64,000 nt of DNA from Candidatus Hydrogenedens sp. (lineage in GTDB: Bacteria; Hydrogenedentota; Hydrogenedentia; Hydrogenedentales; Hydrogenedentaceae), in NCBI GenBank assembly GCA_049968235.1, contig JBMFRC010000001.1:128001-192000 (forward strand). The letters are read 5' to 3'. This document shows, one piece after another, positions 4,802-39,708 of this stretch. A program made the translations under genes and the position numbers. Within the stretch, counting starts at the first letter, position 1. Every line of letters begins with the position of its first letter. The notes under the pieces were generated by a model. That model was not told the DNA's origin. It did not search any database and worked only from the letters and a program-made list of their open reading frames with translations.

Positions 4802-4831
4802 ATTACAAACTTTCTTTTATGTCTTCTTAAA

Positions 4832-5941: not shown

Positions 5942-5963
5942 ATATGTATCTCCTTATATTCAA

Positions 5964-11364: not shown

Positions 11365-11372
11365 GGTAATTT

Positions 11373-12260: not shown

Positions 12261-12263
12261 AAA

Positions 12264-13597: not shown

Positions 13598-13642
13598 AAT
13601 TTTAATATTTATACCTCATGCAAAAAATAATATCCTGCGGAA

Positions 13643-14038
13643 TTAATCTTCGCTGGAAATGTCCGCATTGACTCCACTCCCCCCGGGACTTCCATCTCCA
13701 CCATAGGACATAATCTTATAAGAAGAGTTTCCTTCTTTTTGATAGACATATGCGTTACCCCACGGATCTAACGGAACTTTGGGTGGGTCAAGAAATGGAG
13801 CAATTTCTTCTAAAGTGTTCGGCAAACGTTTGTTTTTTATCCGATACATCTGGATGGCAGTCTTCATATTACTGATTTCTGCTTTTGCTTTTGCCTGGTC
13901 CGCATCATCCAACGCACCAAATACATAAATACCGACGGTCGTGGCAAGAATTGCAATAATGGCTATAACTACCATTAGTTCTACCAGTGTAAAGCCCAAT
14001 AAATTCTTTATTTTTTTCTTCGTTTTTTCTTGTGTCAT
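13643..14038 (-). CDS. gspG: type II secretion major pseudopilin GspG
   Basis: 131 aa. Prepilin motif LLGFTLVELMVVIAIIAILA with Glu+5. The GspG-signature C-terminal region includes DPWGNAYVY. Confidence 0.85.
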   Translation of the reverse strand: MTQEKTKKKIKNLLGFTLVELMVVIAIIAILATTVGIYVFGALDDADQAKAKAEISNMKTAIQMYRIKNKRLPNTLEEIAPFLDPPKVPLDPWGNAYVYQKEGNSSYKIMSYGGDGSPGGSGVNADISSED

Positions 14039-14041
14039 GTT

Positions 14042-15280: not shown

Positions 15281-15327
15281 ATTTTCTCAAAATATTATAA
15301 AGGGGTGTTTTTTTTCTTGCTTTCTTT

Positions 15328-19724: not shown

Positions 19725-19768
19725 GTTTCAACTCCTAATATATAAATATTTGTTGTTCATATCTATAA

Positions 19769-20914: not shown

Positions 20915-23332
20915 TTATTGTTTCTTTCTCACAAGGCTTTTGAGATATAACAAATAGTCTTCAAGCGATATATTCGTATTGGTTTCATCCATTTTCTGAA
21001 CAGAAGACATGGATTGAATTGCCTTTTTATCTGTATTATAGAAAATGCTGTCATACTCACTATAGGGTTTTACAAATTGTTTGCCCGTTTGAGGATTTTC
21101 TGTAACTACAGTTACACTTCTTGTTCCTGCATATAAAGTCCATTTACTGCTTTTAGGCAAATAACGCAAATAAATAATGGCTTTGTCTCCGACTTTAAAT
21201 TCGGGCATCTCCGAGCAAACCATAGCATAGCCATTCACTCTACCCCCGGGGATGGTAAAGATTACAGAACTATTCTCGTTAACAGGTCCTTTTATTGTTT
21301 CTATCACTTTAACTTCAACATCTGTGTATATTCTCATATTTTCTGTCATATAACTGTTTAGCGAAAGGACTTCTGCATTGACTACTGCATCGGATTGGTT
21401 CGTAAGTTCGTCTGTATTAAGAAAGGCGATTCTCGCAGAAGCATTAGAAAGAAATCCAAAAATAGACACTGCAATAATAATGAAAAGTATTGTGGTTTTT
21501 GCTTTTGTTTTAACAGATTGCATTTTCTTTATCTTCCTCCATATAACAAGCAGAATCATAATTGCTATGAGGGAACTCCAGATATTATTTTTAACTAACC
21601 ATGCAAGACTATATACGGTGCCGGCAAATATATATCGCATCATTTCTGATCTTAATATTACCTTAGAAATCATCGGAGCCATTGTATAATATATATCAAC
21701 AAAGGCAATTCCCATACCTGAATTCATCAAATAATTATCTCTAAAAATTCTCAAATCGTTAGACAAAGAAATCGAACCTAATGTGCCAGTAGTCGTTGTC
21801 GTTGTAGTAGTTCCTGTTGGGACTTCAATAATATTCATAGGACAGACATCATTGGGGTCTCCAAACATAGGTTTTCGATTTGTCCTCATTTGAGGGAGTG
21901 TTTTACCTGTAGTACTACTTACAACCACATTTTTTGTAAAACTCCATACCAATCCGGTACCTGCATCTTTACTGCTTACATCCAGTACATTTTCAACTTC
22001 GTGAAACACCTCTGACATAAAGTTCGTTTGATAATCTGTATCAGCACGAGTTGTTACAGAATAACTATTGGGTCCCTGAATACTATCTACATCAGAGGGG
22101 GGTATTCCTTCTGGAGCCTGACGGTCTAATCCCGTTCCGTTCAAAGCATTTAAGGTTAATGTGTAGGAAGGGGTAAACAATTCGCCATCTTTACCGGGAA
22201 CTTCCATGGTTTTCCATAAACCGATGAGATTAAATTTACCTTGAAGTTGCTTATTAATGAGTGGCTCGTATAAACCTACCATTGTACTGAATAAAGGCAC
22301 ACGCGAGGTATTGGGATTATTATCTACATCTGCCCAGGCGACAACATGTCCACCGGGGAGTGGAATAGAAGGAATTCCAGACCCTCTTCGTGTTCTGCTT
22401 CTTGCTTCATGTTTTATATCAAAGAAATTTTCCTGAGCACCCCTTGGATAAAGCCATGAAATACCTGAAATATCATCCGGAGCAAGGTCTTTCCCGCCAT
22501 CTTCTCGTTGACCATTCGGTAGTTCTACTTCAAAATAAATAGGGAACATAGTCGGTGTTGCTCCGATATACTGATGCAGACCATCGGGCATTGTCCTCCA
22601 CACGACAGGATTTTCTATAAGGTAAGAAGGTAATTCATCCCCTTCATTTAAATAAATAGCTCTTAAATTGTTCAAGGGGGTATGGTCTAATCCTAAAAAA
22701 TGCCCCAATTCATGAACAAGTGTTCCTTTTAAATCTGCTAATGGTTCATCACCGGATTCTGAATTATATCGGTGTGCCGTTGCAGATATAACAATATCAC
22801 GGTCAACAACTGTCCCCGCAGAAATAGGGTATATCTGCCCGTTATGTTCGTATACTGTATCGGTAACTGTAAAAAGTGTGAGTGTTACTCCCAATATTCC
22901 TCCACCCACATCCACTGTTTCCGGGTCCGGTTCAACATTCTCACCGGTATCATCTGCTTCGGTAACATACATGGATATCGTGGGCAGGGAATCGGGCACT
23001 GTCAGGGAAATAGGGTCTTCGTAATAACCTATAATCCGAAAGCAGGCGTAGGAAGTTGTAACTTCCTCCCAGACCTTTAATGCTTCTTTAACTTTTTCTA
23101 TTTCATCATCGGTAAAGCCTCTTTTCCCTCTTTCTATATAAATACCGATACCTTCTCCTGTGGTTATTTTACCATCGTTGTTCGTATCAAATTCGTAGAA
23201 GGGCCATCGTGCCAATCGTAATACATTAAATGCATCAAATCCACCGGAGGGGAAAAATGCATAACTATTCCATTGGCAAATAGAAATAATTAATAATGTT
23301 AATGAATATACAAATAATAGTTGTTTTTTCAC
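20915..23332 (-). CDS. membrane-anchored matrixin-like (M10-type metzincin) zinc metalloprotease
   Basis: Signal peptide. Zinc-binding HELGHFLGLDH (HExxHxxGxxH). Met-turn candidate TPTMFPIY. Matrixin-like PDDISGISWLYP. Ca-loop-like DTNNDGKITTGEG. Thr8 linker, two predicted TM helices (SSLIAIMILLVIW and TTILFIIIAVSIFGFL), then a roughly 190-aa C-terminal domain. Confidence 0.7.
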   Translation of the reverse strand: MKKQLLFVYSLTLLIISICQWNSYAFFPSGGFDAFNVLRLARWPFYEFDTNNDGKITTGEGIGIYIERGKRGFTDDEIEKVKEALKVWEEVTTSYACFRIIGYYEDPISLTVPDSLPTISMYVTEADDTGENVEPDPETVDVGGGILGVTLTLFTVTDTVYEHNGQIYPISAGTVVDRDIVISATAHRYNSESGDEPLADLKGTLVHELGHFLGLDHTPLNNLRAIYLNEGDELPSYLIENPVVWRTMPDGLHQYIGATPTMFPIYFEVELPNGQREDGGKDLAPDDISGISWLYPRGAQENFFDIKHEARSRTRRGSGIPSIPLPGGHVVAWADVDNNPNTSRVPLFSTMVGLYEPLINKQLQGKFNLIGLWKTMEVPGKDGELFTPSYTLTLNALNGTGLDRQAPEGIPPSDVDSIQGPNSYSVTTRADTDYQTNFMSEVFHEVENVLDVSSKDAGTGLVWSFTKNVVVSSTTGKTLPQMRTNRKPMFGDPNDVCPMNIIEVPTGTTTTTTTTGTLGSISLSNDLRIFRDNYLMNSGMGIAFVDIYYTMAPMISKVILRSEMMRYIFAGTVYSLAWLVKNNIWSSLIAIMILLVIWRKIKKMQSVKTKAKTTILFIIIAVSIFGFLSNASARIAFLNTDELTNQSDAVVNAEVLSLNSYMTENMRIYTDVEVKVIETIKGPVNENSSVIFTIPGGRVNGYAMVCSEMPEFKVGDKAIIYLRYLPKSSKWTLYAGTRSVTVVTENPQTGKQFVKPYSEYDSIFYNTDKKAIQSMSSVQKMDETNTNISLEDYLLYLKSLVRKKQ

Positions 23333-23398: not shown

Positions 23399-26300
23399 TT
23401 ATGTTGTCTGTTTTTTCTTTGCAGACAGGAGAAACAGCAAAACTGCAATTACCAGACCTATATCAAAGGCATAAGCACTGAAACTTGATTGTTGAGTATC
23501 TTGTCTTTCAGCACAACCAAACATATAAAAACGTTTTTTAGGTGTCTGGGCATCATTTGCATATTCGAAACCTCCTACGAGCGTTTTTTCTGTCCCCTGG
23601 TCTATATTTTTCACAGTAACATCCAGAGATCCTACTGTTGGAATACCGCCCAATGGGAAAGTTATCAGGATGGATGTCCCGTCTGCTGATACAGATTGGA
23701 CAGGCATTAATGTATTTCCGAAATATACCTGTATATTTTCAATCGTTGAGAAATTGGATCCTTGTATGGTTACCGGAAATTCTTTTGATGTACCTTTGTT
23801 CGGATTTATGGAATTGATAATAGGTATCCGTCCCACAGGCTTCGATGTAAGTGTAAATAAATCGGTCCGTGAGGCTTCATCTCCGTTAGAAGTGTTCCGT
23901 ACCAATAAAACTATAGGCTCCATAGGAACAACTCCGGGCATTGTACTAACGGCTATAGTTATGCTGGTATCCGTTGCCTGAATAACACGAACTTGATAAC
24001 CGGATAAACGCACTACAGGGTTGTTTCCAAAATTCCTTCCATATATAACCAATGTAATTTCCTGCCCTTCAAGGGTCTGTATGGGTAATTCAGAGATAGA
24101 TGTGGATTCTATTACCAGTGAAGATGGGGCTATGATTCTATTTATAGAATTAATTACACCGGTTCTCCGTTTCTTGGTGCAATGGGAACGAACCCAGTTT
24201 ACACCCGAATTATCGGCTTTTGCTCCTGCTTTTTTCCCATCCATATAATATCGAACAGGAGGCTCTTTGAAATAGGTAATGAATCCCAGTCCTCTAACGC
24301 CCCATGGAAATTCTCTAAATTTACGGAAATCATTTCTTTGCTCACCTGACAGACGAGCCCAGGTATCGGGGTCAGGTTCTGTTGGTGTATTAGGTCCCCA
24401 GTTAACCACTCCAATTCTGAAATTCACACCGGTTCTCATTTTATCTGAGGCACGTAATATAACAAAGAAATCGGGACCATAAAAAGGATTCTTGTTATTT
24501 GAACCAAACGATGTAGGTATCCATTGACGATTACGAGATTGTTGCACACGAGGAATAGGCACATCATCTGTACCCGGACTGGAAAACACAAATTTAACCT
24601 GGGTGGCTTCACCTGTTTGACCGATATAATAAGGTGTTGCATCTAAGGGTATTGGAATATCTATGTCTGCATCAAAGATGCCATTCCTGTTTCTTGGGTC
24701 AGCGTCATTATCTCGATATAAAGCAATACCACTAATCTGTGGGTCAATATGAAGAGGTAACAAATCATTCAATGGATTAAAGTTCGCATTTGTACCTTCA
24801 TCATAAAATTCCAATGTAACTTCTTCTAAGAAACTGGGATTGCGTTCAATCCGCCAGGAACCATTGCGTGGAGTCCCGCTCAGTAAATACACCTGATTCG
24901 TTGTATTCCCCACAATTTCATAAGATTCAAAAGCAGAATCTATCAAGAAATCTCCAATAAGTGAGTTCGGTTCAAAAGTCACACCGGATACTGTAAATGT
25001 TTTTTCAGAACCTACACCATTTGTTCCTTGATAAAGACTATCTTCGGGTCTGTTCGTTGAAATATCAAATCCCATTACACAAAAGGAGGGACCTCCGGGA
25101 ACAATTGCTTGTTGTTGACTTGTAAAGTCATATATTTGCACGGGTATATTTGTCTCAAGCATATCGTTCCCGTAGAAGTCCTGGACAGGGTCTTCTTCCG
25201 GACTTGATTTAATATATGCAGTGGAACTAGTATTAACCTGTGGGAAGAATTGAATACCTGCTTTTTTCTCCGAATCGCTTCTTCCGGGTAGTGTTGCTGG
25301 TATTACCGCTCTGAAGGATTGGAATCGTTTCCCTTTATCATTCAGTCGAACAGTAATGAAGAGGTCATCTCCGGGATTATTTCCGGTTTCATTCGTTATT
25401 TGTTTCTCTAAGGATTGATTTGTGGTATTTGTCTCTTCGCTCGATTTCTCTTTTATATTCTTTTCAAATATGACATCGCTGAAATCTATATTTCCACATT
25501 CTATTGGAACAGTACCAAAAAGGAAATTCATAAAATCATCCGTAGGTAATCGCCACTTTTCTTTTGGATACATGGTAAGAACCCATGCATAATCTCGCTG
25601 GTCGATTAGACCATTACCATCCATATCATCCGGAGAACCATCTCCATCAATATCAATAGGTTCAGGCCAAGAACTCCATTGTAAATTATTCAATGGGACA
25701 GGCTTATCTCCTATATTTGGCATTGGCAAATCCCAGTAGGTTGCCAATAGTTTGGGTTCAAAGAAAATTCCATTCTGGTCGGTATCTTCCCAAAGCAAGA
25801 CACCCGAGTCGTAACTCTTACCATCCGGGTCCAGTGGCATAAGTAAATCCGGAGAGAAATCAGGTCCCCAGAACGCAACAACAATTTTTGCTACAGATGG
25901 GGCTTCCTGCCCTTCATTGTTTACGACATAATCACCCGAACCTACCAAATTAATACCTAACATAGCGGTATGTTCCGAGTTAATATCTGTTTTTTGTGTA
26001 AGTAATCTTGCTCGATTAAACTCCGAAGCCCACTGACTTGCCCGCGGATATTCATTAGGACCTATATTGCGAGACCATGTAGTATAATCCGGTAAGGCAG
26101 GTTGGTCTAAGGGATTTACATACGCAGAGGAACGCGTGTCCGGACCCAAAATATTCACATGGTCAAACGGAACTGTCTCATAAGCATATTGCCCTCTACT
26201 ATGAGTATAGTCAAAACTAACGGTAAATGTGTTATTATCTGTAATAGAATAAGTAAATCCACCAAATTCACGCCATCTTGTTACACCTACCGAATGTAAA

Positions 26301-29300
26301 TTCAAGAATTGTGTCCTTATCTTTCCTTCGGGGTCCATCCACTTATCAAAATCTTTTGGATAATCGTATAATCCGACGGAATAGCCAAGACAATTTCCTA
26401 AATTAATAGAACCGGAACCATAGAATATATCTGATTCAAATTTATAAGGGGAATCGGATGTATAAGTTAACACTAAGTCATGGACATCCAACCCTACTTT
26501 CATAGGTTTTGTAGATTTTTCATTTACTGTTCGTTGATTCCACCACGGTTCTTGTTGTCCCCATCTCAAATCTGATTGCCAGGGAGGACCTCCCCCATCC
26601 AAAAGTCCGCCTAATGGAGGAATCTGGGAATCTACATAAATACCTCCTGTAGGTTTACCATTATTATCAACCCGTCTTGGCTCTATAAAGACGCGGAAAT
26701 CTGCACCCATCATAACACCATTACCATCAGGTACGGTCTGAGAAACATCCTTAAATCCACTGTCTGTTCTTATTACAACGAAGTAATCACTCGCATATTC
26801 ACTTCCTGTAGCCACACCAACATAATTATCCGGTATCGGCTCAACAAAACCGGAGACATCGTTATCACTGGGAGTAACATATCTCCTTCGTCCATAGAAG
26901 AAACGAAGATTTATCTTCCACCATGGGTCTCCTCCTCCCGGTGGGAATGGTATGTATTCCCAATTGAGTAGTTGACCTGTAGGCAAAATAAAACCTTCAG
27001 ACAGATTAATTCCGATTACCGTCTCGGGTAATAATGGATAGTCACCGTTTAACTGGACTCCTTGTCCATCAGGAAGTGGTGTCGGTGGGTCAAATTTACC
27101 GTTATTATTTGTATCATGCCACACCCAAACACCATTAAAAACAATATCCTGGAATAACACCTTGTCACTATTTATCAAAAGTCCATTTATTTGAGTAGAA
27201 ACTTTATCCAAAGATTCACGAGGGTCAAAACCTCCATTGCCGGGAGGACCGTATGGGTCTGCTCCAATATCTGTAAAAATAACATTTACCTCTCGAAGTT
27301 GTGACCATATCCTCTTCTCTGCGGTATAACGCGGTCCTACTAACGTGTCATATCCATCTGCATGCACAGATTTTGTAGAATGGACATTTATTCCTATCAC
27401 AGGTTTCCATGTATCCATAGCAACCAGGCGACGGAACGACAATAGTTCTCCGGCATACATATATAACAGTTGGTTAAACTTTGACCACTTGGGGCGTGTA
27501 TGTTCTGCAAGAGGTGTATATAACCGCGTCGGATAATTCCATGCATCAAAACCACTATACTCCCATTGCTCAGGATTGATAATACCGTTCAAATCCCAAA
27601 CAGTAAAACTGGCAGAATAGCCTGTGTCGGATATCATTTTTTCTGGTTTTTTCGCATCATAGAAGTTTGGGTCATACTCATCTATTGCATCTCCATCTGT
27701 ATTTCTTGGAAAGATACCATTAAGTTTTATCATCTCCGCACGAAGAACATCACAAGCCATAGTAATCTGGCTTCGCCATGTGGCAGATGTTCGAACGGCG
27801 ACAATATAGGAATTTCCATCAAATCCTTCATCTTGATTGGGAGCCGTTACAACAGGATAATCCGGTTTATCTGGTGTTCCACTCCCAATAAAGTTCAGCC
27901 TATAAGTAATACCCTCCGGAGAATATGGATTTTGCGTCAGAATTTGTGCTAATGGCGTTCCATCCGAATTCCACTTAAATAACAATTCATCATAATAGGG
28001 GTCTAATTGATTATTATATTCTTCTTTCTTTGAATAGTTTTCCCTGAATAAGGCAAATTCTAATAAATCAGAAATATTGGGACCTCCCTGATTCCCATAA
28101 TTTAACTCACCTTGACTTCTTTTATCCGCTCGAATTCGATATACTAACGATTTCAAAACTCGTGGAGCCGGATTTTCCGGGTCATAGCCCATTGTAAAAT
28201 TAAATAATGGAACCCAGTCTGTCAAGGGCAAAAGTGCTTCTTTATCTTTGATTATAGATTGGACAGAGAATTTGGCACTTGGCTCCTCTTGATTTTCACC
28301 TTCTGTTGTTCCTTCTGTTTGCCCTTCTCCTTCTGTCGTTGATGGACAACCAATACATGGACCTACAGTTATATAATTAGGTATCAGATAACATAGTTTC
28401 ATGGTCTCATTAGTATTTACATTTTTAAATGTTACTTCAAGAGTGACAGAATAGAATCCTTCTTTAGTGTATCTATGTATCGGGTTCTGTTGTGTGGATT
28501 CTATAGCAGGGACATTATCTCCAAAACTCCAGGACCATGCAGTAACTTTCCAGATATCTGTTCCGACGGACATATCCCTAAACTGCACATCCAGGCCCGG
28601 TTCTTTTTCACCCATAGCATCCGGCGTTATGTATCCTGAATTGGGTTGGGCAGTGAAGCTAACATAGGGAGCACTTAATATTTCTATATAATCTCTTTTA
28701 ATTTTAGATGCACTTAATCCATTCTTATCTTTTATAACGACGCTGACGGTATATGTTCCTGCCTGGGAATATGTATGTGTTGGATTTCTATCTGTGGATT
28801 GTGTACCATCTCCGAAATCCCACTGAACGGAAGCCAGCGTTATTCCACTACCCGGAACTAATGTAAATTTAATTTGTCCTCCGGGTATCTGTCTCTGTCT
28901 ATCCGCCGTAAAATCAACGGTTGGTACCTGCAAAGCCACTATTGTCTTGGTACGACCGGAAGCAACCGGATTTGTGCGAATCCAGTTTAATCCCAATCTG
29001 TCCGATTGAGCCTGGCTCATGTCCACTTCCGCTCGTGCTGTCCATTTGCGGAGTCTATCATTATATGCCCAATAACGATAAATAAGTGGGTCCTTAAAGA
29101 AACTAATAAACCCTAATGCACGATTTCCCCATGGGAATTCGGAATATAGGTAGAACAATCCATCGTTAATATCACCGGCACCCGGATATATACGAACAAA
29201 ATTATCCGGGTCGGGTTCCGTAGGGGTATCTCCACCAAACGAGACTATTGCTGCCTGGAATGCATCTCCTGCACTTATTGCAGATGATGTTCGGATTACC

Positions 29301-32300
29301 ACAAAGAAGTCGGGACCGTATCCATTTTCACTGGGACAATCTCCAAAGCATACCGGAATAGGTTGCCGGAGCCGAGGCTGAGAAATATACGGTGTTCCTC
29401 CTTGTGTTGGGTCTCGTCCAACACTATTATCGGTACCGGGTGAAGAGAACACAAAGCGAACCTGATAACGTGGGTCTCCCGGACGGGAATACCACACTGG
29501 TGAATTATCCAATCGTAATGGCAAATCAATATAATCAACAGTTCCATCATTATTAATAATCGGTGGGTCAAATACTCCATTTGTATTTCTCGGGTCCCAA
29601 TCATTGTCCCGCCAGATTGAAACACCACTTTCTTTCCCATTTGCAGGGTCTTCTTCATTTAACGGTAATAAATCGTTATATGGGTCAAATCCACGAACTG
29701 TTGTTTGCGTATTCGCATTATAAAATTCAACAATTACCTGCTCTAAGAAGGTAGGGTCTTTAACCACATACCAGGGACTACCATTCTTCGGAGTTCCTGC
29801 TCTTAGCCGTAAAGTCCTTCCCTGAGCACCTGTAATTTCAAAGGCTTCCACCCGTTTATTTACTTCCTGGTCCGCCTGACCATAAGCGATCAGCCACATA
29901 CCCACTATATTCTGTGTCCATGCACCATTAGAATAGAAATCTTTAAGGCTCGTTTCAGGAATAATAATATCTCGAGCATCAGGACTGAATGCCTTATCTC
30001 CAGCAGATGCACCGGTACCATTTCCGTAAGCAATTAAATTTTCAACACGGTTCATTGATGCGTCAATACCTAAAATAGCAATAGGCTGTCCACCGGGAAT
30101 TATAACCGGTGTTGTAATACCACTGGTTGAAGGAGGAAGTAATGCATCCGTCATATCTACAATTCGTGACGGTACACTCACCTGCAACATATCATGTCCA
30201 TAGAAATCCTGCAAACCACCTTCTTCCGGATTTGTCTTAACAACAGCTCCTCGCGATGTTAAACCACCCTGAGAAAACACAACCCCTGCGAATTGTGCTG
30301 TTGTAGGAGTTCTATCCGGTAACCGTGCAGGAACTAAACAACGAAACTCCTCAAAAGCACTTACTGTATCGGATGTTCGGATTACCACAAATAAATCATC
30401 TCCCCTATGTCCTCCTGCTGTAAGTGCCTTTGCATCCTTTTCCATCGGGACAACATTTGCAACACCTTCATCATCATATTCTGGAGATACTATATCCAAA
30501 AGCAAAGATTTCTTTGCCGAAGATGTTATCTTTTCTGTATCTTTAACATCTTTTATTATTTCCGGAGATAACGGAAGTGATAAATTGCTATTTGCTTCTA
30601 AACTCTTTGCAGTTATAGGTGGATTGGCTCCTCCGGAGCGTATATCGGATTGAGGCACTGTCCATGGCTGTGCAGGTGTTAATTTTAATACCCATGCAAG
30701 GTCTTTTAATCCATCCCATGCTTTCTTCTGGGCAGAAGTAAGTTGCGGTCTTTCCAGGTCAGATAAATCAACATTTCCATCTGTTACAATACCGTCACCA
30801 CTCAAATCATCTGGAATATTATCTCCATCTAAATCTACAGGTTCCGGTTTAATACCCCATTCTAAGGAGCCCGGAACCAGAGGGACGATTCTATCCGTAA
30901 AGACAGGAACAGATACAGTATCTAAAAACACAGGACCTGTAAACACCCCATCCGCATTTGTATCCTCATAAAGCAAGACACCTGAAGATGGGAGTGTTCC
31001 ACCTGTGCTATCCAATGGAGTTAAGTCAGATGGGTCAAATTCCGGTCCCCAGAACGCAACATATATGCTATTTAAAGCTACGGGACCTGAACGATTTACT
31101 ACGGGGTCATCTGCACCGGATAAGTTAAATCCTAACACTGCTACGGGTTGCGATTTATATTCTACCTTCTGTCTCAAAATTCGAGCGGAACGGGACTCAC
31201 CATTGGGTCCTGAACTTACTGTGTTATTGCCCCATCCTGCTGGCCAATCTGCCATTTGCGGATAACGATTGCGAACCATTGTGTTTTGTGTAACTAACCA
31301 GGGACCCCGTTCTACCGCATTGGCTCGTCCTCCTCTAACACCATAAGGATACTGAGAGACCGATAATTTGTTCCCATTCATCATATAAGGAGATATATAG
31401 GCTGAATGTCCATTCTCAAGTTCTAATATATTCCCACTGTTACTCTTTATATAGTATCTACCTCCATTATTATCTATAAACCACCAGCCCGATAAATCTA
31501 CTCCTGCGAAATTACCATCTAATAATTCTGCATAATAGACATCATCCTTGTATCCTGCCCAGACACCTTGCCATGTTTCTATAACATTAGGGTCTTCGCT
31601 TGGGTCGAAATGATAGTATTCAAGGTTATCCCCAAGTGTCCCTTCATCTGCATATACAATACAACGCGAACCAAAGTTTACAAGACCTAATCTCATGGGC
31701 CATGTATAATAATCCGGTAAAGTTGGTTGAATAAATGGTTTAGGATATGCTGTACTTCGTGGAGTTAAAGAACGAGGTAATAATGGGTCATCAAAGGTAG
31801 GTTCAAAAGGTACGGTTTCAAAAGCATACTGAAACGATGTTAACTCATCTAAATTAGGAACAGGCTGACCTGTCCAGAAAATCGCCTCTGAATAGTCCGG
31901 TAAGATACCCGGATTATATAAATATCCTAGCGCAGAACTGGAATTTAATAAAGGATTCGTATTGGGGTCAAGAATCAGGTCAGAAGGAGGTGCTAATCCC
32001 AATAAAAACCGTTGATTGAAGATACCGAAAACATCAAAACCTAAACCTAATTGTATTGGTGGGTCTGACCACAAACTTAAATTGGTTACTCCATTCAACC
32101 CTCTCCAATCATAAAAGGCAATATTAACAATATCAACCGCGTGATTCGATATATGGATAGGTTGTGTCGGATGAATATAAGTTTCCCTACCGAAGGTATT
32201 ATCAGTACTATATGTTAATACAAGGTCATGTACTTCAAAACCTACTCTTTGTGGCTTTACATTATCCTGAGTGTGAGAGCGTTCCGTCCACCAGGGACTA

Positions 32301-34876
32301 TTTATTCTACGACTTATCTCAGATGTAGAACCTGAAGGATATACTTCATCAATCCATTCCGTATCTTGAACATATTTTTTCTTCCAATCAAGATACATGT
32401 TAGAAAACCATATTCCTCCATCCCAGTGTCCACCATCCCTCGGATTCCACCGTCTCGGCTCTATAAATGCACGGAAATCACCACCAAATAGTCCTCCCGG
32501 GCCAGAGGTTCTTCCGGACAAATCTTTTCTCCCACTATTAGTTCTTAATACTATAAAATAATCCGGTTTCTCAATAGCAGTAGTAGAATAACCGAAATAA
32601 TCTATTTTAGATTCAAAATATCCTGTAGGTGTCTCATTGGGACGACATCTCCTCCTACCCCCTGCAAATCTCAATCGCACCTTCCACCATGGGTCTCCTC
32701 CTCCCGGTGGAAATGGTTCATACTCCCATGAAATTACTGTATCAACCATTCCTCCCTGGTCTTTAGAAGCAGGAATCATAGGATAATCAAGAAATGAAAT
32801 CCCATAACTATTTCCAGAACTATCTAAAGGAACTGGTGGGTTAAATATCCCATTTCCTTCTTCTGTATCATAAGTATCATGATACAACCATGCCCCATTA
32901 AAAGAATAATCATTTTGAACAGCAACAGAACAATCACCAGCATATGAAGTTGTTATGGGATCTAAGGCATAATTAGGATTAAACCCGCCATTACCCGGAG
33001 GTCCAAATGGGTCACCCCCAATATCTGTCAGGATAAGGTTTACTTCCCAAATCTGTGCATTTGGACTTCCATGAGCATTAATTCCTATTACAGGAATCCA
33101 TGAATCTACTGGCAAGACCTGTCGCAGGTCCATTATTTCTCCAGTAACTGCTTCAATAAAGGTATTAGAAATATCCCATCTCGGTCTTGTGTGCTCTGCT
33201 ACAGGGGTATACATAAAAAAGGGCCATCCCGAAAGATTGCAATTCTCTCCAGGACTATAATCCCCTGTTAAATCATATACATTAAAATGTGATTCATAGA
33301 ACTTTCCTTCATCCAAAAAATCTCCTTCATAAAAATTAGGACTATATGAATCTACAGGTTGCCCATTATTCTGCGTAAGGAAGGAACCAACTCCATAATT
33401 CCAGAATGGGAAAGGAACATTGCTTACTATTGATGAAAGAGTGGGACCTGTATAAGGTTGCATGCGGGCAGCGTTAACACGAACCCCGATTCTATTAAAA
33501 TTTTTCCATCTGTATGTCAAGCGAACCGCAACTATATAACCTGCCCCCGGGTCAGCACTTGCTGTTACCCATTGTTTTAAGATTCCCTCACTGGTATCTA
33601 CCCCATCATTGGTATTTGTAGCGACATCTAAATTTTTTACTTTTACAAACGGAAACAATTCTGTGGGAGGGGTATTTCTTGCTCTTACAGCGTTAAAAGG
33701 GTCCGTAGGGTCATAGTGTGGGCTTTGAGGATTCATTGTAAAATTAAGATTATAATTTAAATCCCTTGAGAAATTACCTTGAGCATTTGGCATTTCGTAA
33801 GGGAAACCATACCTATCCCATGTTAACATCGGTTTTCCAGGTTCGATACGGAAAGCATTGGGACTTCCTTGCAGATACACTAATCTACCATCATAATTGA
33901 AATCCAATACTTCATCTGGTTTGCCTTCAGGACCCGAGTCACAAAACAATCCGAATTCCAAAATATCCTCAGGCTCTATTGAAGGGGGCACTGTTTGAGG
34001 GTCATCATTCCTCAATGCTGCATACAAATGGTAACTCAATTGGACTAAAGTTCTTGGGGCAGGTTGGTCTGGGTTATATTTCATATTAAAATAAAAAAGA
34101 GGGACCCAATCGTTAAGAGGGACGAGACCCTGACCATCTTCTATTAAATCTTTTACTTCCATTGAAGCAGAATTGACTTGCGTGTCCTGGCGAACAATTA
34201 CATAGTCCTCTTTATAAGTAGGTTGTTCATTAAGAGGGGGGCAATATCTGTATTCCCCAGGATTATCCGGGTTTTCAAGTCGAATCCGCATCCCTATTGT
34301 ATATCTTCCTCCTGTCTGGAAATATTGGGAATTTTGTCCTCCAATGACAAAGACTTGTTGGTCGGGTGCAACACGAGGGTCATACTGCTGTTCTACCTGG
34401 AATTCCCATGCAAAGCCTGTAGTTCCAGGTATTCCACCTGTGTTACGACTGATATACCATGTGATATTTGTTATGTTTGGCATATCATTTGCATCAAATC
34501 CAGATAGTTCATATATCAGTCTAAATCCTACAGATAGAGGCGCTGCACCATCCGTCGGGTTTGCTATGAATCTTGCTGATAATTGGTCACATGTCGGATA
34601 AACAAGATTTGCAATTTGTCCTGGAACCAAAGAAGGTAGAATACCTAACAGAGCATCTGTCGGAGCAGAAGATGCAACTTGTATCCTCTTTTCCTGTTTC
34701 GGAATATCCGTATTCGTCATCTTATCATTAGAAGTATGTGGAAAAATAGATGGTTTTTCTGAATAAGTATTTTTACTCTCTTCCCCTGAAAAATAAAAAT
34801 TTACACCTAAAAGAAATGCACAACCTATTATCACGATAAATTGAAACGCCAAATAAAATTTATTCATTCGTTTCAC
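23399..34876 (-). CDS. giant (3825 aa) surface protein: N-terminal signal/anchor, two diverged super-repeats, two PKD domains, C-terminal IPT/TIG-like domains and C-terminal TM anchor
   Basis: Single uninterrupted ORF. Colinear internal homology between repeat 1 (about 34170-29000) and repeat 2 (about 28270-24400), for example PFPPGGGDPWWK, FRVFIEPRR, VAFWGP[DE]F, FVFSSPGTD, TPTEPDPD and FPWG.RGLGFI. PKD signatures WDFGDGTQ and WSWSFGDN. Terminal ...DIGLVIAVLLFLLSAKKKQTT. Confidence 0.8.
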   Translation of the reverse strand: MKRMNKFYLAFQFIVIIGCAFLLGVNFYFSGEESKNTYSEKPSIFPHTSNDKMTNTDIPKQEKRIQVASSAPTDALLGILPSLVPGQIANLVYPTCDQLSARFIANPTDGAAPLSVGFRLIYELSGFDANDMPNITNITWYISRNTGGIPGTTGFAWEFQVEQQYDPRVAPDQQVFVIGGQNSQYFQTGGRYTIGMRIRLENPDNPGEYRYCPPLNEQPTYKEDYVIVRQDTQVNSASMEVKDLIEDGQGLVPLNDWVPLFYFNMKYNPDQPAPRTLVQLSYHLYAALRNDDPQTVPPSIEPEDILEFGLFCDSGPEGKPDEVLDFNYDGRLVYLQGSPNAFRIEPGKPMLTWDRYGFPYEMPNAQGNFSRDLNYNLNFTMNPQSPHYDPTDPFNAVRARNTPPTELFPFVKVKNLDVATNTNDGVDTSEGILKQWVTASADPGAGYIVAVRLTYRWKNFNRIGVRVNAARMQPYTGPTLSSIVSNVPFPFWNYGVGSFLTQNNGQPVDSYSPNFYEGDFLDEGKFYESHFNVYDLTGDYSPGENCNLSGWPFFMYTPVAEHTRPRWDISNTFIEAVTGEIMDLRQVLPVDSWIPVIGINAHGSPNAQIWEVNLILTDIGGDPFGPPGNGGFNPNYALDPITTSYAGDCSVAVQNDYSFNGAWLYHDTYDTEEGNGIFNPPVPLDSSGNSYGISFLDYPMIPASKDQGGMVDTVISWEYEPFPPGGGDPWWKVRLRFAGGRRRCRPNETPTGYFESKIDYFGYSTTAIEKPDYFIVLRTNSGRKDLSGRTSGPGGLFGGDFRAFIEPRRWNPRDGGHWDGGIWFSNMYLDWKKKYVQDTEWIDEVYPSGSTSEISRRINSPWWTERSHTQDNVKPQRVGFEVHDLVLTYSTDNTFGRETYIHPTQPIHISNHAVDIVNIAFYDWRGLNGVTNLSLWSDPPIQLGLGFDVFGIFNQRFLLGLAPPSDLILDPNTNPLLNSSSALGYLYNPGILPDYSEAIFWTGQPVPNLDELTSFQYAFETVPFEPTFDDPLLPRSLTPRSTAYPKPFIQPTLPDYYTWPMRLGLVNFGSRCIVYADEGTLGDNLEYYHFDPSEDPNVIETWQGVWAGYKDDVYYAELLDGNFAGVDLSGWWFIDNNGGRYYIKSNSGNILELENGHSAYISPYMMNGNKLSVSQYPYGVRGGRANAVERGPWLVTQNTMVRNRYPQMADWPAGWGNNTVSSGPNGESRSARILRQKVEYKSQPVAVLGFNLSGADDPVVNRSGPVALNSIYVAFWGPEFDPSDLTPLDSTGGTLPSSGVLLYEDTNADGVFTGPVFLDTVSVPVFTDRIVPLVPGSLEWGIKPEPVDLDGDNIPDDLSGDGIVTDGNVDLSDLERPQLTSAQKKAWDGLKDLAWVLKLTPAQPWTVPQSDIRSGGANPPITAKSLEANSNLSLPLSPEIIKDVKDTEKITSSAKKSLLLDIVSPEYDDEGVANVVPMEKDAKALTAGGHRGDDLFVVIRTSDTVSAFEEFRCLVPARLPDRTPTTAQFAGVVFSQGGLTSRGAVVKTNPEEGGLQDFYGHDMLQVSVPSRIVDMTDALLPPSTSGITTPVIIPGGQPIAILGIDASMNRVENLIAYGNGTGASAGDKAFSPDARDIIIPETSLKDFYSNGAWTQNIVGMWLIAYGQADQEVNKRVEAFEITGAQGRTLRLRAGTPKNGSPWYVVKDPTFLEQVIVEFYNANTQTTVRGFDPYNDLLPLNEEDPANGKESGVSIWRDNDWDPRNTNGVFDPPIINNDGTVDYIDLPLRLDNSPVWYSRPGDPRYQVRFVFSSPGTDNSVGRDPTQGGTPYISQPRLRQPIPVCFGDCPSENGYGPDFFVVIRTSSAISAGDAFQAAIVSFGGDTPTEPDPDNFVRIYPGAGDINDGLFYLYSEFPWGNRALGFISFFKDPLIYRYWAYNDRLRKWTARAEVDMSQAQSDRLGLNWIRTNPVASGRTKTIVALQVPTVDFTADRQRQIPGGQIKFTLVPGSGITLASVQWDFGDGTQSTDRNPTHTYSQAGTYTVSVVIKDKNGLSASKIKRDYIEILSAPYVSFTAQPNSGYITPDAMGEKEPGLDVQFRDMSVGTDIWKVTAWSWSFGDNVPAIESTQQNPIHRYTKEGFYSVTLEVTFKNVNTNETMKLCYLIPNYITVGPCIGCPSTTEGEGQTEGTTEGENQEEPSAKFSVQSIIKDKEALLPLTDWVPLFNFTMGYDPENPAPRVLKSLVYRIRADKRSQGELNYGNQGGPNISDLLEFALFRENYSKKEEYNNQLDPYYDELLFKWNSDGTPLAQILTQNPYSPEGITYRLNFIGSGTPDKPDYPVVTAPNQDEGFDGNSYIVAVRTSATWRSQITMACDVLRAEMIKLNGIFPRNTDGDAIDEYDPNFYDAKKPEKMISDTGYSASFTVWDLNGIINPEQWEYSGFDAWNYPTRLYTPLAEHTRPKWSKFNQLLYMYAGELLSFRRLVAMDTWKPVIGINVHSTKSVHADGYDTLVGPRYTAEKRIWSQLREVNVIFTDIGADPYGPPGNGGFDPRESLDKVSTQINGLLINSDKVLFQDIVFNGVWVWHDTNNNGKFDPPTPLPDGQGVQLNGDYPLLPETVIGINLSEGFILPTGQLLNWEYIPFPPGGGDPWWKINLRFFYGRRRYVTPSDNDVSGFVEPIPDNYVGVATGSEYASDYFVVIRTDSGFKDVSQTVPDGNGVMMGADFRVFIEPRRVDNNGKPTGGIYVDSQIPPLGGLLDGGGPPWQSDLRWGQQEPWWNQRTVNEKSTKPMKVGLDVHDLVLTYTSDSPYKFESDIFYGSGSINLGNCLGYSVGLYDYPKDFDKWMDPEGKIRTQFLNLHSVGVTRWREFGGFTYSITDNNTFTVSFDYTHSRGQYAYETVPFDHVNILGPDTRSSAYVNPLDQPALPDYTTWSRNIGPNEYPRASQWASEFNRARLLTQKTDINSEHTAMLGINLVGSGDYVVNNEGQEAPSVAKIVVAFWGPDFSPDLLMPLDPDGKSYDSGVLLWEDTDQNGIFFEPKLLATYWDLPMPNIGDKPVPLNNLQWSSWPEPIDIDGDGSPDDMDGNGLIDQRDYAWVLTMYPKEKWRLPTDDFMNFLFGTVPIECGNIDFSDVIFEKNIKEKSSEETNTTNQSLEKQITNETGNNPGDDLFITVRLNDKGKRFQSFRAVIPATLPGRSDSEKKAGIQFFPQVNTSSTAYIKSSPEEDPVQDFYGNDMLETNIPVQIYDFTSQQQAIVPGGPSFCVMGFDISTNRPEDSLYQGTNGVGSEKTFTVSGVTFEPNSLIGDFLIDSAFESYEIVGNTTNQVYLLSGTPRNGSWRIERNPSFLEEVTLEFYDEGTNANFNPLNDLLPLHIDPQISGIALYRDNDADPRNRNGIFDADIDIPIPLDATPYYIGQTGEATQVKFVFSSPGTDDVPIPRVQQSRNRQWIPTSFGSNNKNPFYGPDFFVILRASDKMRTGVNFRIGVVNWGPNTPTEPDPDTWARLSGEQRNDFRKFREFPWGVRGLGFITYFKEPPVRYYMDGKKAGAKADNSGVNWVRSHCTKKRRTGVINSINRIIAPSSLVIESTSISELPIQTLEGQEITLVIYGRNFGNNPVVRLSGYQVRVIQATDTSITIAVSTMPGVVPMEPIVLLVRNTSNGDEASRTDLFTLTSKPVGRIPIINSINPNKGTSKEFPVTIQGSNFSTIENIQVYFGNTLMPVQSVSADGTSILITFPLGGIPTVGSLDVTVKNIDQGTEKTLVGGFEYANDAQTPKKRFYMFGCAERQDTQQSSFSAYAFDIGLVIAVLLFLLSAKKKQTT
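26915..26944 (-). repeat. exact 30-nt direct repeat copy B (encodes the PFPPGGGDPWWK motif of super-repeat 2)
   Basis: Identical 30-mer to 32681-32710. The 1922-aa offset matches the super-repeat period. Confidence 0.8.
32681..32710 (-). repeat. exact 30-nt direct repeat copy A (encodes the PFPPGGGDPWWK motif of super-repeat 1)
   Basis: cttccaccatgggtctcctcctcccggtgg is identical to 26915-26944, 5766 nt away. Confidence 0.8.
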
Positions 34877-35298
34877 GGCAACTTGCTCCTTATATTTTAT
34901 TCATATCCTTTTGCAATTCTTTAAATTTTATATGTATATCTTTAACTCTTTGCAGATGGAATATCTATCCTCCTACAAATATGTTGTATTAAAAGTATTT
35001 TACTACATACATAATATATATCTGAAACTTTTATCCTTTCTTAAAACCATTTTTTCGATAATAGTTTAACATTTATTAATAACCAATATACAATTTTTTA
35101 TTACATAAATTATAATATAATCTTATAATTATGTCAACAATTTATTTCATTTTCAAATTATTTTTGTCTTTTTATTCTACTTTTTTTAATAAATTAATTT
35201 TACAGCATATTTAACACACATTTGTCAAGAGAAATCTTTACTGAAAACTTTAATAAAAGGAACAAAATCGGATGTCAGATAAGAAAATCCTTTTAATT
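34877..35298 (-). promoter_or_regulatory. AT-rich 420-bp region upstream of the giant gene (probable promoter region)
   Basis: Long noncoding, extremely AT-rich tract immediately 5' of the giant ORF start codon. Confidence 0.3.
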
Positions 35299-38858: not shown

Positions 38859-38873
38859 CGGCTAATAATACTC

Positions 38874-39704: not shown

Positions 39705-39708
39705 CGTT

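What the first reader, a model, noticed from the sequence alone, without database searches (positions are those of the whole stretch)
23399..34876. 3825-aa giant protein built from two ~1300-1700-aa diverged super-repeats plus PKD and TIG domains
The two halves share colinear motif strings:
- DWVPLF.F.M.Y.P[DE].PAPR and AEHTRP[RK]W;
- VIGINAHGS / VIGINVHS;
- PFPPGGGDPWWK and DYF[IV]V[IL]RT[DN]SG;
- FR[AV]FIEPRR, VAFWGP[ED]F and GVLL[YW]EDT[ND]..G[VI]F;
- DDLF[VI][VT][IV]R..D, DFYG[HN]DML, RDND.DPRN.NG[VI]FD and VKFVFSSPGTD;
- GPDFFV[VI][IL]R[TA]S, TPTEPDPD and FPWG.R[AG]LGFI[ST][FY]FK[DE]P.

A short [DG][YF]F[VI]V[IL]R module recurs about four times per super-repeat. Calcium-loop-like DxDxDG strings (DIDGDGSPDDMDGNGLID, DLDGDNIPDDLSGDG) resemble thrombospondin-type-3 or dockerin loops.

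Other features are an N-terminal hydrophobic signal or anchor, two PKD domains between the repeats, C-terminal IPT/TIG-like domains and a terminal TM plus KKK tail. The tail has no PEP, LPXTG or RTX signatures. I cannot assign the super-repeat to any named family.
Basis: seen in the sequence. Interest (0 to 1): 0.65.

Follow-up and report, generated by a model that had tools for sequence, protein, structure and literature searches.

The report
Giant two-module protein heading T2SS operon
A 3,825-residue envelope protein of an uncultured Hydrogenedens bacterium is made of two ancient copies of a 1,400-1,750-residue module that matches no described family. With a membrane-anchored metzincin-like partner, it sits directly upstream of the type II secretion genes across most of the phylum Hydrogenedentota.

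Summary
The ORF at 23399-34876 (-) encodes 3,825 aa. Residues 236-1982 and 2200-3578 are colinear homologues (31-34% identity, E 2e-94 and 1.5e-108). Two PKD domains lie between them, and two TIG domains plus a Cys-TM-KKK tail lie at the end.

The family is essentially confined to Hydrogenedentota. Of 70 species-representative loci, 35 carry two modules, 32 of them in one frame. The duplication is old: A copies group with A, and B with B.

A roughly 800-aa partner follows in 53 of 57 loci. It has a metzincin-like domain, often catalytically dead, a CFI-box and a TM segment. gspC/D follows in 34 of 46 loci. Three species fuse giant and partner. Most homologues end in a full CFI-box-CTERM; the window's protein keeps only the conserved Cys, the TM helix and the basic tail.

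Best reading (0.42): a Sec-exported, C-terminally tagged envelope protein that the adjacent T2SS handles for surface display, by analogy with MYXO-CTERM and GlyGly-CTERM proteins. Main rival (0.27): an inner-membrane-anchored accessory of the T2SS. Function is untested.

The parts
34787..34876 (-). N-terminal signal peptide or membrane anchor of the giant (aa 1-30; MKRMNKFYLAFQFIVIIGCAFLLGVNFYFS)
   Evidence: Hydropathy window above 1.8 at aa 6-31. Homologues mostly have classical signal peptides ending AxA.
34172..34786 (-). Linker plus a region that looks PKD-like by eye (aa 31-235; ARFIANPTDGAAPLSVGF ... GRYTIGMRIRL ... DYVIVRQD)
   Evidence: Read from the sequence only. No Pfam hit even at E<=10, so the PKD assignment here is unconfirmed.
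28931..34171 (-). Module A (aa 236-1982): N-half 236-1064, A-specific insertion 1065-1202, C-half 1203-1982
   Evidence: BLASTP against module B, E 2.5e-94 and 1.5e-108. No Pfam, NCBIfam or PDB sequence hit.
30791..30835 (-). Asp-rich calcium-loop-like string of module A (DLDGDNIPDDLSGDG, aa 1348-1362)
   Evidence: Pattern located. No TSP3, dockerin or EF-hand HMM hit.
28373..28930 (-). Two PKD domains between the modules (about aa 1983-2168)
   Evidence: Pfam PKD_4 E 3e-25 and PKD E 1.4e-19, two stretches each. PDB sequence hits to ColH PKD domains, E 7e-18.
24143..28279 (-). Module B (aa 2200-3578)
25601..25654 (-). Two overlapping DxDxDGxxDxxD strings of module B (DIDGDGSPDDMDGNGLID, aa 3075-3092)
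   Evidence: Regex. The columns are nearly invariant in alignments A1 and A2. No HMM support.
24260..24847 (-). 'Unit Z' (about aa 3344-3539), the last repeated beta-sandwich unit of module B. It also occurs as a stand-alone repeated domain in other giant proteins.
   Evidence: hhalign internal repeats at 79-95% probability. Profile positions 910-1100 hit multi-copy proteins P0088, P0113, P0115 and others. No Pfam hit.
23552..24124 (-). Two IPT/TIG domains (about aa 3585-3775)
   Evidence: Pfam TIG E 2.5e-10, two stretches. NCBIfam CoaZ_rpt_PGGG at 31.7 bits.
23399..23551 (-). C-terminal tag and stop codon: conserved Cys3788 (nt 23513-23515), a spacer of about 10 residues, TM helix at about aa 3797-3821, then KKKQTT
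   Evidence: The Cys column is nearly invariant (>=90%) across 42 sequences and aligns with the first Cys of the CFI-box-CTERM of distant homologues.
20915..23332 (-). 805-aa partner protein. In order: signal peptide, metzincin-like domain (HELGHFLGLDH), middle domain, invariant Cys (CPMN), CFI-box-like helix region, TM+KKK, a second signal-like hydrophobic segment, and a C-terminal domain of about 170 aa.
   Evidence: Pfam Peptidase_M10 at 23 bits (cutoff 24). NCBIfam CFI_box_CTERM at 40.4 bits (cutoff 40). Present within 3 kb downstream in 53 of 57 loci. 61-sequence alignment. Split into two genes in L086. Fused to the giant in L077-L079.
8549..20731 (-). Type II secretion operon: gspC, gspD, gspE, gspF, gspG, three pseudopilin-like genes, gspK, and a PilM/PilN/GspL-like gene
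   Evidence: Pfam hits. gspC/gspD lie downstream of the module gene in 34 of 46 loci.
35109..35137 (-). Perfect sigma-70 consensus (TTGACA-17-TATAAT), about 230 nt upstream of the giant's start codon
   Evidence: 12 of 12 matches. This is a consensus match only. No minus-strand terminator-like site lies between the giant, the partner and gspC.
35299..40425 (-). Upstream ABC ATPase, ABC-2 permease, GldG-like ABC_transp_aux protein and DUF4340 protein
   Evidence: Pfam. DUF4340 and/or the ABC_transp_aux gene (the full set where enough upstream DNA is held) lies upstream of the module gene in at least 24 of the 76 species loci and in L005 and L008.

Best explanation
**What the protein is**
- The giant is a Sec-exported envelope protein of Candidatus Hydrogenedens.
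- Its extracytoplasmic part is two ancient tandem copies of a phylum-specific module of 1,400-1,750 aa.
- Each module is a compact array of about four related cohesin/CBM-like beta-sandwich units with Asp-rich loops that probably bind calcium.
- PKD and TIG domains act as spacers.

**Proposed route**
1. After export, the protein is held in the inner membrane by a C-terminal tripartite tag: a conserved Cys, a TM helix and a basic tail. This tag is a cut-down form of the CFI-box-CTERM domain that most family members carry.
2. By analogy with MYXO-CTERM/myxosortase and GlyGly-CTERM/rhombosortase proteins, the tag is processed near the Cys by an enzyme not yet identified.
3. The type II secretion system encoded directly downstream then takes the protein to the cell surface, where it stays attached as a large binding or coat protein, possibly glycan-binding.
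4. The co-conserved metzincin-like partner carries the same CFI-box and travels or acts with it.

**Shown here:** the architecture, the homology, the age of the duplication, the taxonomic range, the synteny, the gene fusions and the relationship of the tags.

**Inferred only:** tag processing, T2SS dependence, surface location and ligand.
For: **1. Synteny**
- The module gene is followed by the partner in 53 of 57 species-representative loci and by gspC/gspD in 34 of 46.
- The same order is seen in L001, L005, L006, L007 and L008.
- Distant relatives that share mainly 'unit Z' also sit directly upstream of gspC-D-E-F-G (L086, L087).

**2. One likely transcription unit**
- There is a 66-nt gap to the partner and a 183-nt gap to gspC.
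- No terminator-like site lies between them, and a 12/12 sigma-70 consensus lies upstream.

**3. The tag**
- P0042 and P0026 carry a full CFI_box_CTERM (81-84 bits, cutoff 40).
- The window's protein and its near relatives keep the aligned Cys, a TM helix and an Arg/Lys cluster.
- The partner carries the same box, with its Cys invariant in 61 of 61 sequences.
- In L086 the metzincin is a true C-terminal CFI-box protein. At least two different proteins therefore share the tag, as expected of a sorting signal.

**4. Precedent**
- MYXO-CTERM (invariant Cys, TM, Arg-rich tail) is cleaved by the CPBP protease MrtX; its surface localisation by the T2SS is described there as predicted (PMC11980579).
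- GlyGly-CTERM proteins need rhombosortase and then the T2SS (10.1101/2023.06.07.544157; PMC12889589).

**5. Surface-protein-like make-up**
- PKD and TIG domains are present.
- The models are beta-sandwiches whose nearest folds are cohesins, MSCRAMM adhesins and the N-terminal carbohydrate-binding domain of Bacteroides GH33 sialidases (Foldseek E 3e-7).
- Some homologues carry N-terminal Mep72-like metzincin, Kelch, BNR, Calx-beta or DUF11 domains ahead of the module, as if it were a display scaffold.
Against: - No sorting enzyme (CPBP, rhomboid or exosortase) is encoded in the 64-kb window or in the annotated flanks of six related loci.
- The window's tail matches no described sorting-signal HMM.
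- From my own knowledge, a folded protein of about 420 kDa, with two compact modules of 150-190 kDa, would be larger than any established T2SS substrate.
- The module is as conserved as GspC and GspD in the same loci (35-45% against 25-60%). That fits a core machine part better than a fast-evolving adhesin.
- In three species the giant's tail runs in frame into the partner's signal peptide, which fits permanent residence of both in the inner membrane equally well.
- 12 of 46 loci have no T2SS genes after the partner.
- There is no experimental or expression evidence of any kind.
Confidence: 0.42

Rival explanations
1. The giant and its partner are permanent inner-membrane-anchored periplasmic proteins. 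Together they form a phylum-specific accessory structure of the Hydrogenedentota T2SS, such as a periplasmic scaffold, cage or gate, rather than its cargo.
For: - The pair is near-universal and leads the gsp operon.
- The module is conserved at the level of GspC and GspD, with many invariant loop motifs such as PFPPGGGDPWWK and TPTEPDPD across sequences that are 35% identical overall.
- The partner's protease site is degenerate in 32 of 61 sequences while its Cys and CFI-box are invariant, which suggests a structural role.
- Giant and partner are fused through a TM hairpin in L077-L079, and the partner is itself a fusion of two genes that are separate in L086.
- pTM of 0.82 points to rigid compact bodies rather than beads on a string.
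- No sorting enzyme is nearby.
Against: - 12 of 46 loci keep the giant and partner but have no gsp genes downstream (L003/L004).
- From my own knowledge, no T2SS studied so far needs such a component.
- PKD and TIG spacers and variable N-terminal enzyme or lectin-like add-ons are typical of exposed surface proteins.
- A periplasm would have to house 420 kDa per copy.
- The CFI-box-CTERM domain was named as a C-terminal tag by its curators (name only; no description could be read).
Confidence: 0.27
2. It is a T2SS cargo released from the cell, or only loosely attached. It would serve as a large non-catalytic polymer-binding scaffold for polysaccharide or protein degradation, comparable to a cellulosomal scaffoldin, with the metzincin partner as a co-secreted enzyme.
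For: - The nearest folds are cohesins, CBM-like domains of sialidases and GH123 enzymes, and a phage depolymerase.
- Dockerin/TSP3-like Asp loops are present.
- Homologues are fused to metzincin, Kelch and BNR domains.
- From my own knowledge, cargo genes next to gsp operons are common (pulA, sslE/yghJ).
Against: - There are no cohesin or dockerin HMM hits.
- The C-terminal TM tag is universally kept, which argues against free release.
- The high sequence conservation and single-copy status are unlike scaffoldins.
Confidence: 0.12
3. It is the surface adhesin of a gliding or surface-motility apparatus that combines the upstream GldA/F/G-like ABC transporter and DUF4340 protein with the downstream T2SS and type IV pilus genes.
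For: - The ABC, ABC-2, GldG-like and DUF4340 genes lie directly upstream in the window, in L005 and L008, and (at least the DUF4340 or GldG-like gene) in at least 24 of 76 species loci.
- Type IV pilus ATPase, PilC and pilin genes follow the T2SS at 767-7805.
- T2SS-family secretins have been tied to slime secretion in gliding bacteria (PMC12475490, abstract).
Against: - The ABC set is absent upstream in the more distant single-module loci (for example L001, L006, L036, L040).
- There is no motor or track homologue, and nothing is known of Hydrogenedentota motility.
Confidence: 0.07

Closest known systems
MYXO-CTERM proteins (for example TraA) sorted by myxosortase MrtX and displayed via the T2SS in Myxococcus (PMC11980579; 10.1101/2023.06.07.544157)
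   Same: Both have a tripartite C-terminal tag with a conserved Cys, a TM helix and a basic cytoplasmic tail. Both are large multidomain surface-type proteins, and both have a link to a T2SS.
   Different: - The tail does not match the MYXO-CTERM, JDVT, Synerg or CGP HMMs.
- It derives from the much longer CFI-box-CTERM (about 69 positions).
- No CPBP protease was found nearby.
- The T2SS link here is genomic adjacency, not experiment.
- The cargo is phylum-wide, usually one or two copies per genome, rather than dozens of tagged proteins.
GlyGly-CTERM / rhombosortase / T2SS substrates (VesB of Vibrio cholerae; PMC12889589)
   Same: Sec export, transient inner-membrane anchoring by a C-terminal TM tag, then T2SS-dependent surface retention.
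   Different: There is no GlyGly motif and no rhombosortase gene. The protein is about ten times larger.
CFI-box-CTERM domain proteins (NCBIfam NF041770)
   Same: Most family members (for example P0042 and P0026 at 81-84 bits) and the partner carry this domain. The window's Cys aligns with its first residue.
   Different: The window's giant itself does not reach the model: there is no hit at E<=0.1. About 50 residues of the box are missing. Nothing about the domain's function could be found in the searchable literature.
T2SS cargo genes placed at the head of gsp operons (pulA of Klebsiella, sslE/yghJ of E. coli; from my own knowledge)
   Same: A large exported protein is encoded directly upstream of, and probably co-transcribed with, the gsp genes. 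SslE is likewise a big surface-associated metalloprotease, as the partner may be.
   Different: Those cargoes are enzymes of 110-170 kDa with N-terminal lipid anchors. This protein is about 420 kDa, has no recognisable catalytic domain, and has a C-terminal anchor.
Giant repetitive bacterial adhesins (SprB, LapA/RTX adhesins, Bap; from my own knowledge)
   Same: Size, beta-sandwich content, putative calcium loops, and PKD/TIG-type spacers.
   Different: - It is not built of many short tandem Ig repeats but of two modules of 1,400-1,750 aa with fixed internal order.
- It is much more conserved.
- It is linked to a different secretion route (T2SS rather than T1SS or T9SS).

Membership tests
PKD domain (PF18911 / PF00801) | HMM score above the gathering threshold | tested here: met
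   PKD_4 at 88.5 bits (cutoff 27) and PKD at 70.3 bits (cutoff 23.5), two stretches at about aa 1983-2168. The N-terminal region aa 60-240 that looks PKD-like by eye gave no hit.
IPT/TIG domain (PF01833) | HMM score above the gathering threshold | tested here: met
   40.6 bits (cutoff 20.9), two stretches, about aa 3585-3775.
CFI-box-CTERM (NCBIfam NF041770) | HMM score of at least 40 bits at the C-terminus | tested here: not met
   The giant has no hit at E<=0.1, and the tail alone has none at E<=10. Homologues P0042 and P0026 are met (81.3 and 84.2 bits). The partner scores 40.4 bits, but the hit is internal.
CFI-box-CTERM (NCBIfam NF041770) | Leading Cys followed, after the box, by a TM helix and a basic cluster | tested here: met
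   Cys3788, TM at about 3797-3821, then KKK. The Cys column is nearly invariant (>=90%) in alignments A1 and A2.
Cys-containing tripartite sorting signals processed by CPBP myxosortases (MYXO-CTERM, JDVT-CTERM, Synerg-CTERM, CGP-CTERM) | Match to one of the signal HMMs | tested here: not met
   No hit for the giant or for four related tails. The best is the MXAN_0125 family at E 0.14 for one relative.
Cys-containing tripartite sorting signals processed by CPBP myxosortases | Short signature with a conserved Cys, then a TM helix, then an Arg/Lys-rich end | tested here: met
   Tail alignment of 25 family members.
Cys-containing tripartite sorting signals processed by CPBP myxosortases | Cognate CPBP-family intramembrane protease in the genome | not testable with these tools
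   None lies in the 64-kb window or in the called genes of L001-L008. Whole genomes could not be scanned.
T2SS substrate | N-terminal Sec signal, and export dependent on the Gsp machinery | tested here: inconclusive
   A hydrophobic N-terminus is present, and gsp adjacency holds in 34 of 46 loci. Secretion itself is not testable here.
TSP type-3 / dockerin / EF-hand / RTX / FG-GAP / VCBS / cadherin repeats | HMM match | tested here: not met
   Nothing on the whole protein at E<=1. For the loop region alone, FG-GAP_3 gives E 1.3 (10.2 bits against 26.9) and EF-hand_1 gives E 8.3. Only the DxDxDGxxDxxD pattern is present.
Cohesin / CBM-like beta-sandwich folds | Significant structural superposition | tested here: inconclusive
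Metzincin / Peptidase_M10 (partner protein) | HExxHxxGxxH zinc site and an HMM match | tested here: inconclusive
   The window's partner has HELGHFLGLDH, but Pfam M10 scores 23.0 bits against a cutoff of 24. The motif is intact in only 29 of 61 orthologues.

The most novel reading that the evidence does not exclude
The giant module protein and its pseudo-metzincin partner are obligate structural subunits of a modified, phylum-specific type II secretion machine. They might form, for example, a periplasm-spanning or surface cap assembly tethered by CFI-box/TM segments. That would be a new T2SS architecture built around a previously undescribed family of beta-sandwich domains of about 190 aa.
Probability: 0.2. 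Interest if true: 0.8.

Novelty: new variant of a known kind. Interest (0 to 1): 0.6.

Why it matters
Hydrogenedentota is a widespread, uncultured phylum whose cell envelope is essentially unknown.

This locus gives three things:
- **A marker gene pair.** The giant module protein plus a CFI-box metzincin-like partner, tied to the phylum's T2SS.
- **An undescribed protein module.** It spans 1,400-1,750 aa and includes a reusable unit of about 190 aa that recurs in other giant proteins next to T2SS operons.
- **Genomic context for CFI-box-CTERM.** No publication on this tag was found in the searchable literature, and the context suggests it works with a T2SS.

If the surface-display reading is right, it extends the Cys-tag/T2SS sorting idea beyond Myxococcota and pushes the size limit of T2SS cargo. 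If the structural reading is right, it is a new kind of T2SS accessory.

Tried and rejected
**Searches that found nothing**
- **Named families for the super-repeat.** Pfam at E<=1 on the whole protein and at E<=10 on seven sub-pieces, NCBIfam, and PDB sequence search all gave nothing beyond PKD and TIG.
- **Known sorting-signal models on isolated tails.** No match.
- **A sorting enzyme in the window.** All ORFs of at least 120 aa were scanned, and none is a CPBP, rhomboid or exosortase protein.
- **Other CFI-box motifs in the window.** A six-frame scan found only the partner's.
- **Literature.** Nothing on CFI-box or CFIATAAYG. Two Hydrogenedentota genome papers do not mention secretion, pili or surface proteins.
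- **Homology search with a CFI-box tail alone.** The query was too short and gave only 2 hits.

**Readings rejected**
- **Lipoprotein signal.** 'IIGC' at aa 16-19 looks like a lipobox, but it is not conserved in homologues, which mostly have AxA signal peptides.
- **Assembly artefact or recent duplication.** The copies are only 31-34% identical overall. A and B copies are each orthologous across species. 32 species representatives have both copies in one frame.
- **Partner as the tag-cleaving protease.** Its zinc site is lost in 32 of 61 orthologues.
Full report
**1. The observation**

The ORF at 23399..34876 on the minus strand is open for 3,825 codons from a GTG start.

BLASTP of the first half against the second gives two colinear segments:
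- aa 236-1064 against 2200-2939: 31% identity, E 2.5e-94.
- aa 1203-1982 against 2941-3578: 34% identity, E 1.5e-108.

Copy A carries an extra insertion of about 140 residues at 1065-1202.

The FVVxR motif occurs four times per copy. The Asp-rich strings lie at 1348-1362 and 3075-3092.

Pfam finds only two PKD domains between the copies and two TIG domains after the second copy. Hydropathy shows one N-terminal hydrophobic segment and one C-terminal segment followed by KKKQTT.

**2. What the module is**

No library names it:
- Pfam at E<=1 on the whole protein and at E<=10 on isolated pieces finds nothing more.
- NCBIfam adds only TIG-like and PKD-like hits.
- PDB sequence search finds only PKD domains.

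AlphaFold2 was run with a 42-sequence alignment. It gives confident models for the N-half (pLDDT 77, pTM 0.82) and the C-half (pLDDT 83, pTM 0.82) of module B. Both are almost all beta. The high pTM implies fixed packing between domains rather than beads on a string.

Fold searches give only generic matches:
- Foldseek's best hits are Bacteroides GH33 sialidases, which I take to be a match to their N-terminal carbohydrate-binding domain (E 3e-7, but TM-score only 0.15-0.22).

Profile-profile comparison of sliding windows of the family alignment shows internal repeats:
- aa 2992-3062 resembles 3346-3411 (95% probability).
- aa 2523-2600 resembles 3346-3405 (89%).
- The FVVxR hairpin regions at 2681-2730, 3169-3192 and 3467-3490 resemble one another (80-88%).
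- The first domain matches more weakly (47%).

Each module is therefore about four diverged copies of one beta-sandwich unit plus inserts.

**3. Where else it occurs**

A word-indexed search with module B found 74 proteins. Every one that carries an organism name is Candidatus Hydrogenedentes/Hydrogenedentota, apart from one labelled Nitrospiraceae and one labelled only 'bacterium'. One partial entry is 100% identical and comes from Candidatus Hydrogenedens sp..

A profile search of 1.84 billion representatives found 217 hits, 115 of them below 1e-30. Eight further full double-module proteins of 2,900-4,340 aa were among them.

A scan of one genome per GTDB species returned 76 loci:
- Nearly all are titled Hydrogenedentota, Hydrogenedentes or Hydrogenedentales.
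- A set of MAGs is labelled 'uncultured Nitrospirales/Nitrospiraceae' and one is labelled Bathyarchaeia. I take these as labelling or binning issues, but this is not proven.

Of 70 loci that include a module C-end, 35 have two module C-ends about 5 kb apart. In 32 of those, both lie in one open frame of 2,100-5,160 codons, counted stop-to-stop; some of these frames are cut by contig ends.

On the most conserved 370 residues:
- The nearest neighbour of an A copy is another A in 29 of 36 cases.
- The nearest neighbour of a B copy is another B in 31 of 36 cases.
- Identity between A and B within one protein averages 47%, against 53% for A with A and 56% for B with B.

The duplication is therefore old, both copies are maintained, and the window's protein is a typical member of a large sub-clade.

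**4. Context**

On the minus strand the gene order is as follows:
- ABC ATPase, ABC-2 permease, GldG-like protein and DUF4340 protein.
- The giant.
- An 805-aa protein.
- gspC, gspD, gspE, gspF, gspG, three pseudopilin-like genes, gspK and a PilM/N/GspL-like gene.
- Type IV pilus ATPases, PilC and a pilin.

The gaps are 66 nt between the giant and the 805-aa protein, and 183 nt between that protein and gspC. No minus-strand terminator-like site lies between them. A perfect TTGACA-17-TATAAT lies about 230 nt upstream of the giant. These are consensus matches only.

Across the species-representative loci:
- The 805-aa partner lies within 3 kb downstream in 53 of 57 informative cases.
- gspC/gspD lies downstream in 34 of 46.

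The same order is seen in metagenome contigs L001, L005, L006, L007 and L008. L003/L004 keep the partner but not the gsp genes.

Two distant relatives match mainly the last unit of the module ('unit Z', aa 3344-3539). They are P0196, a 4,516-aa protein in the P0088 cluster (P0088 itself has three strong copies about 1,300 aa apart), and P0113. Both also sit directly upstream of gspC-D-E-F-G. The tie to the T2SS is therefore older than the family proper.

**5. The partner and the tags**

The partner has these parts, in order:
- a signal peptide;
- a metzincin-like domain (HELGHFLGLDH; Pfam M10 at 23 bits against a cutoff of 24);
- a middle domain;
- an invariant 'FGD...CPxN';
- a CFI-box-like segment (NCBIfam NF041770, 40.4 bits against a cutoff of 40);
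- a TM helix with a basic cluster;
- a second hydrophobic segment ending AxA;
- a C-terminal domain of about 170 aa.

In 61 orthologues the zinc motif is intact in only 29, while the Cys is invariant.

In L086 the partner is two genes: a 188-aa secreted protein and a 593-aa metzincin that ends in a true C-terminal CFI-box. The window's partner is therefore a head-to-tail fusion in which a tail TM helix is followed by the next protein's signal peptide.

The same kind of fusion joins the giant to the partner in L077, L078 and L079.

Most module proteins end in a full CFI-box-CTERM (P0042 at 81 bits, P0026 at 84 bits). The window's protein and its nearer relatives have instead '...F-x-Y-x-N, 8-12 residues, G-C-[GAS], 8-18 residues, [GS]D, TM, R/K-rich'. 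In the global alignments their Cys falls in the nearly invariant Cys column of the CFI-box. The tail matches no described sorting-signal model.

**6. Mechanism**

Shown:
- An exported giant protein built of beta-sandwiches.
- A conserved Cys-TM-basic C-terminal tag.
- A partner that shares the tag.
- Both genes lead the T2SS operon across a phylum.

Known elsewhere: tripartite tags with an invariant Cys (MYXO-CTERM) are cleaved by a CPBP intramembrane protease, and the proteins are then predicted to be placed on the surface by the T2SS (PMC11980579). GlyGly-CTERM proteins follow the same logic with rhombosortase (10.1101/2023.06.07.544157; PMC12889589).

Inference: the giant is anchored in the inner membrane by its tag, processed near Cys3788, and passed to the surface by the adjacent T2SS. 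There it acts as a large calcium-stabilised binding or coat protein. I put this at 0.42.

The main rival, at 0.27, is that the giant and partner stay in the inner membrane as an accessory of the T2SS. Five points favour it:
- The module is as conserved as GspC and GspD in the same loci.
- The partner is often a dead enzyme.
- The TM-hairpin fusions exist.
- No sorting enzyme is nearby.
- A 420-kDa folded cargo would exceed known T2SS substrates (my own knowledge).

Lesser rivals are a released polymer-binding scaffold (0.12) and a gliding adhesin tied to the GldG-like ABC set (0.07).

**7. Comparison and novelty**

The locus works most like MYXO-CTERM or GlyGly-CTERM surface proteins, and it is placed like pulA or sslE. 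It is not a member of any of the tag families I tested.

The module and its unit of about 190 aa are undescribed in Pfam and NCBIfam and have no close solved structure. I found no paper that mentions the family or the CFI-box.

I rate it a new variant of a known kind: a T2SS-linked, C-terminally tagged envelope protein built from a new domain family. Interest is 0.6. It is a clear and testable lead into the envelope of an uncultured phylum, but it has no functional evidence yet.

Noticed in passing
window 20915-23332 (-): The 805-aa partner is a fusion protein with two TM segments. It combines a metzincin-like CFI-box protein with a small secreted domain. In orthologues the zinc site is lost in 32 of 61, while the CFI-box Cys is invariant.
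   Followed up: yes
L077, L078, L079 (species-representative loci): The giant and the partner form one open frame of 2,174-5,163 codons (the L079 frame is N-terminally shorter). The giant's C-terminal TM and basic tail run straight into the partner's signal peptide.
   Followed up: partly
L086 10001-23551 and L087 10001-15211: Distant giant proteins (4,516 and 1,736 aa) share mainly the 'unit Z' domain of about 190 aa. Both also lie directly upstream of gspC-D-E-F-G. Their taxonomy was not determined.
   Followed up: partly
L009 10001-17881: A 2,626-aa protein with 'unit Z'-like repeats and nine TIG domains lies beside a secretin with STN and TPR domains, a Peptidase_M10 beta-propeller protein and a PilM-like gene. 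This is the same theme in a different secretin system.
   Followed up: no
window 35299-40425 (-): An ABC ATPase, ABC-2 permease, GldG-like ABC_transp_aux protein and DUF4340 protein lie directly upstream of the giant. DUF4340 and/or the GldG-like gene recurs upstream in at least 24 of 76 related loci. The 35299-37284 ORF overlaps the preceding ORF by 91 nt, so its true start is probably later.
   Followed up: partly
window 35109-35137 (-): A perfect 12/12 sigma-70 consensus (TTGACA-17-TATAAT) lies in the 422-nt gap upstream of the giant.
   Followed up: no
window 767-7805 (-): A type IV pilus-like set follows the T2SS operon on the same strand: two PilB-like ATPases, a PilT-like ATPase, a PilC-like protein and a pilin with an N-methylation motif.
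   Followed up: no
window 41313-44279 (+): A 988-aa protein with an N-terminal hydrophobic segment has no significant Pfam or NCBIfam hit (only a sub-threshold Pfam GLMA_2nd match, E 0.0057).
   Followed up: no
window 49686-52748 (-): A 1,020-aa protein fuses an LPG_synthase_TM membrane domain to a sulfatase/phosphodiesterase-type domain.
   Followed up: no
window 58792-60417 (+): A 541-aa protein with a bacterial surface Ig-like domain has a hydrophobic segment near its C-terminus followed by a KKK-containing stretch. It has no CFI-box or Cys tag.
   Followed up: no
P0022, P0016, P0019-P0021, P0023 (homologues): Some single-module family members carry an N-terminal Mep72-like metzincin and a Kelch beta-propeller ahead of the module. 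Others carry BNR, Calx-beta or DUF11 domains.
   Followed up: partly
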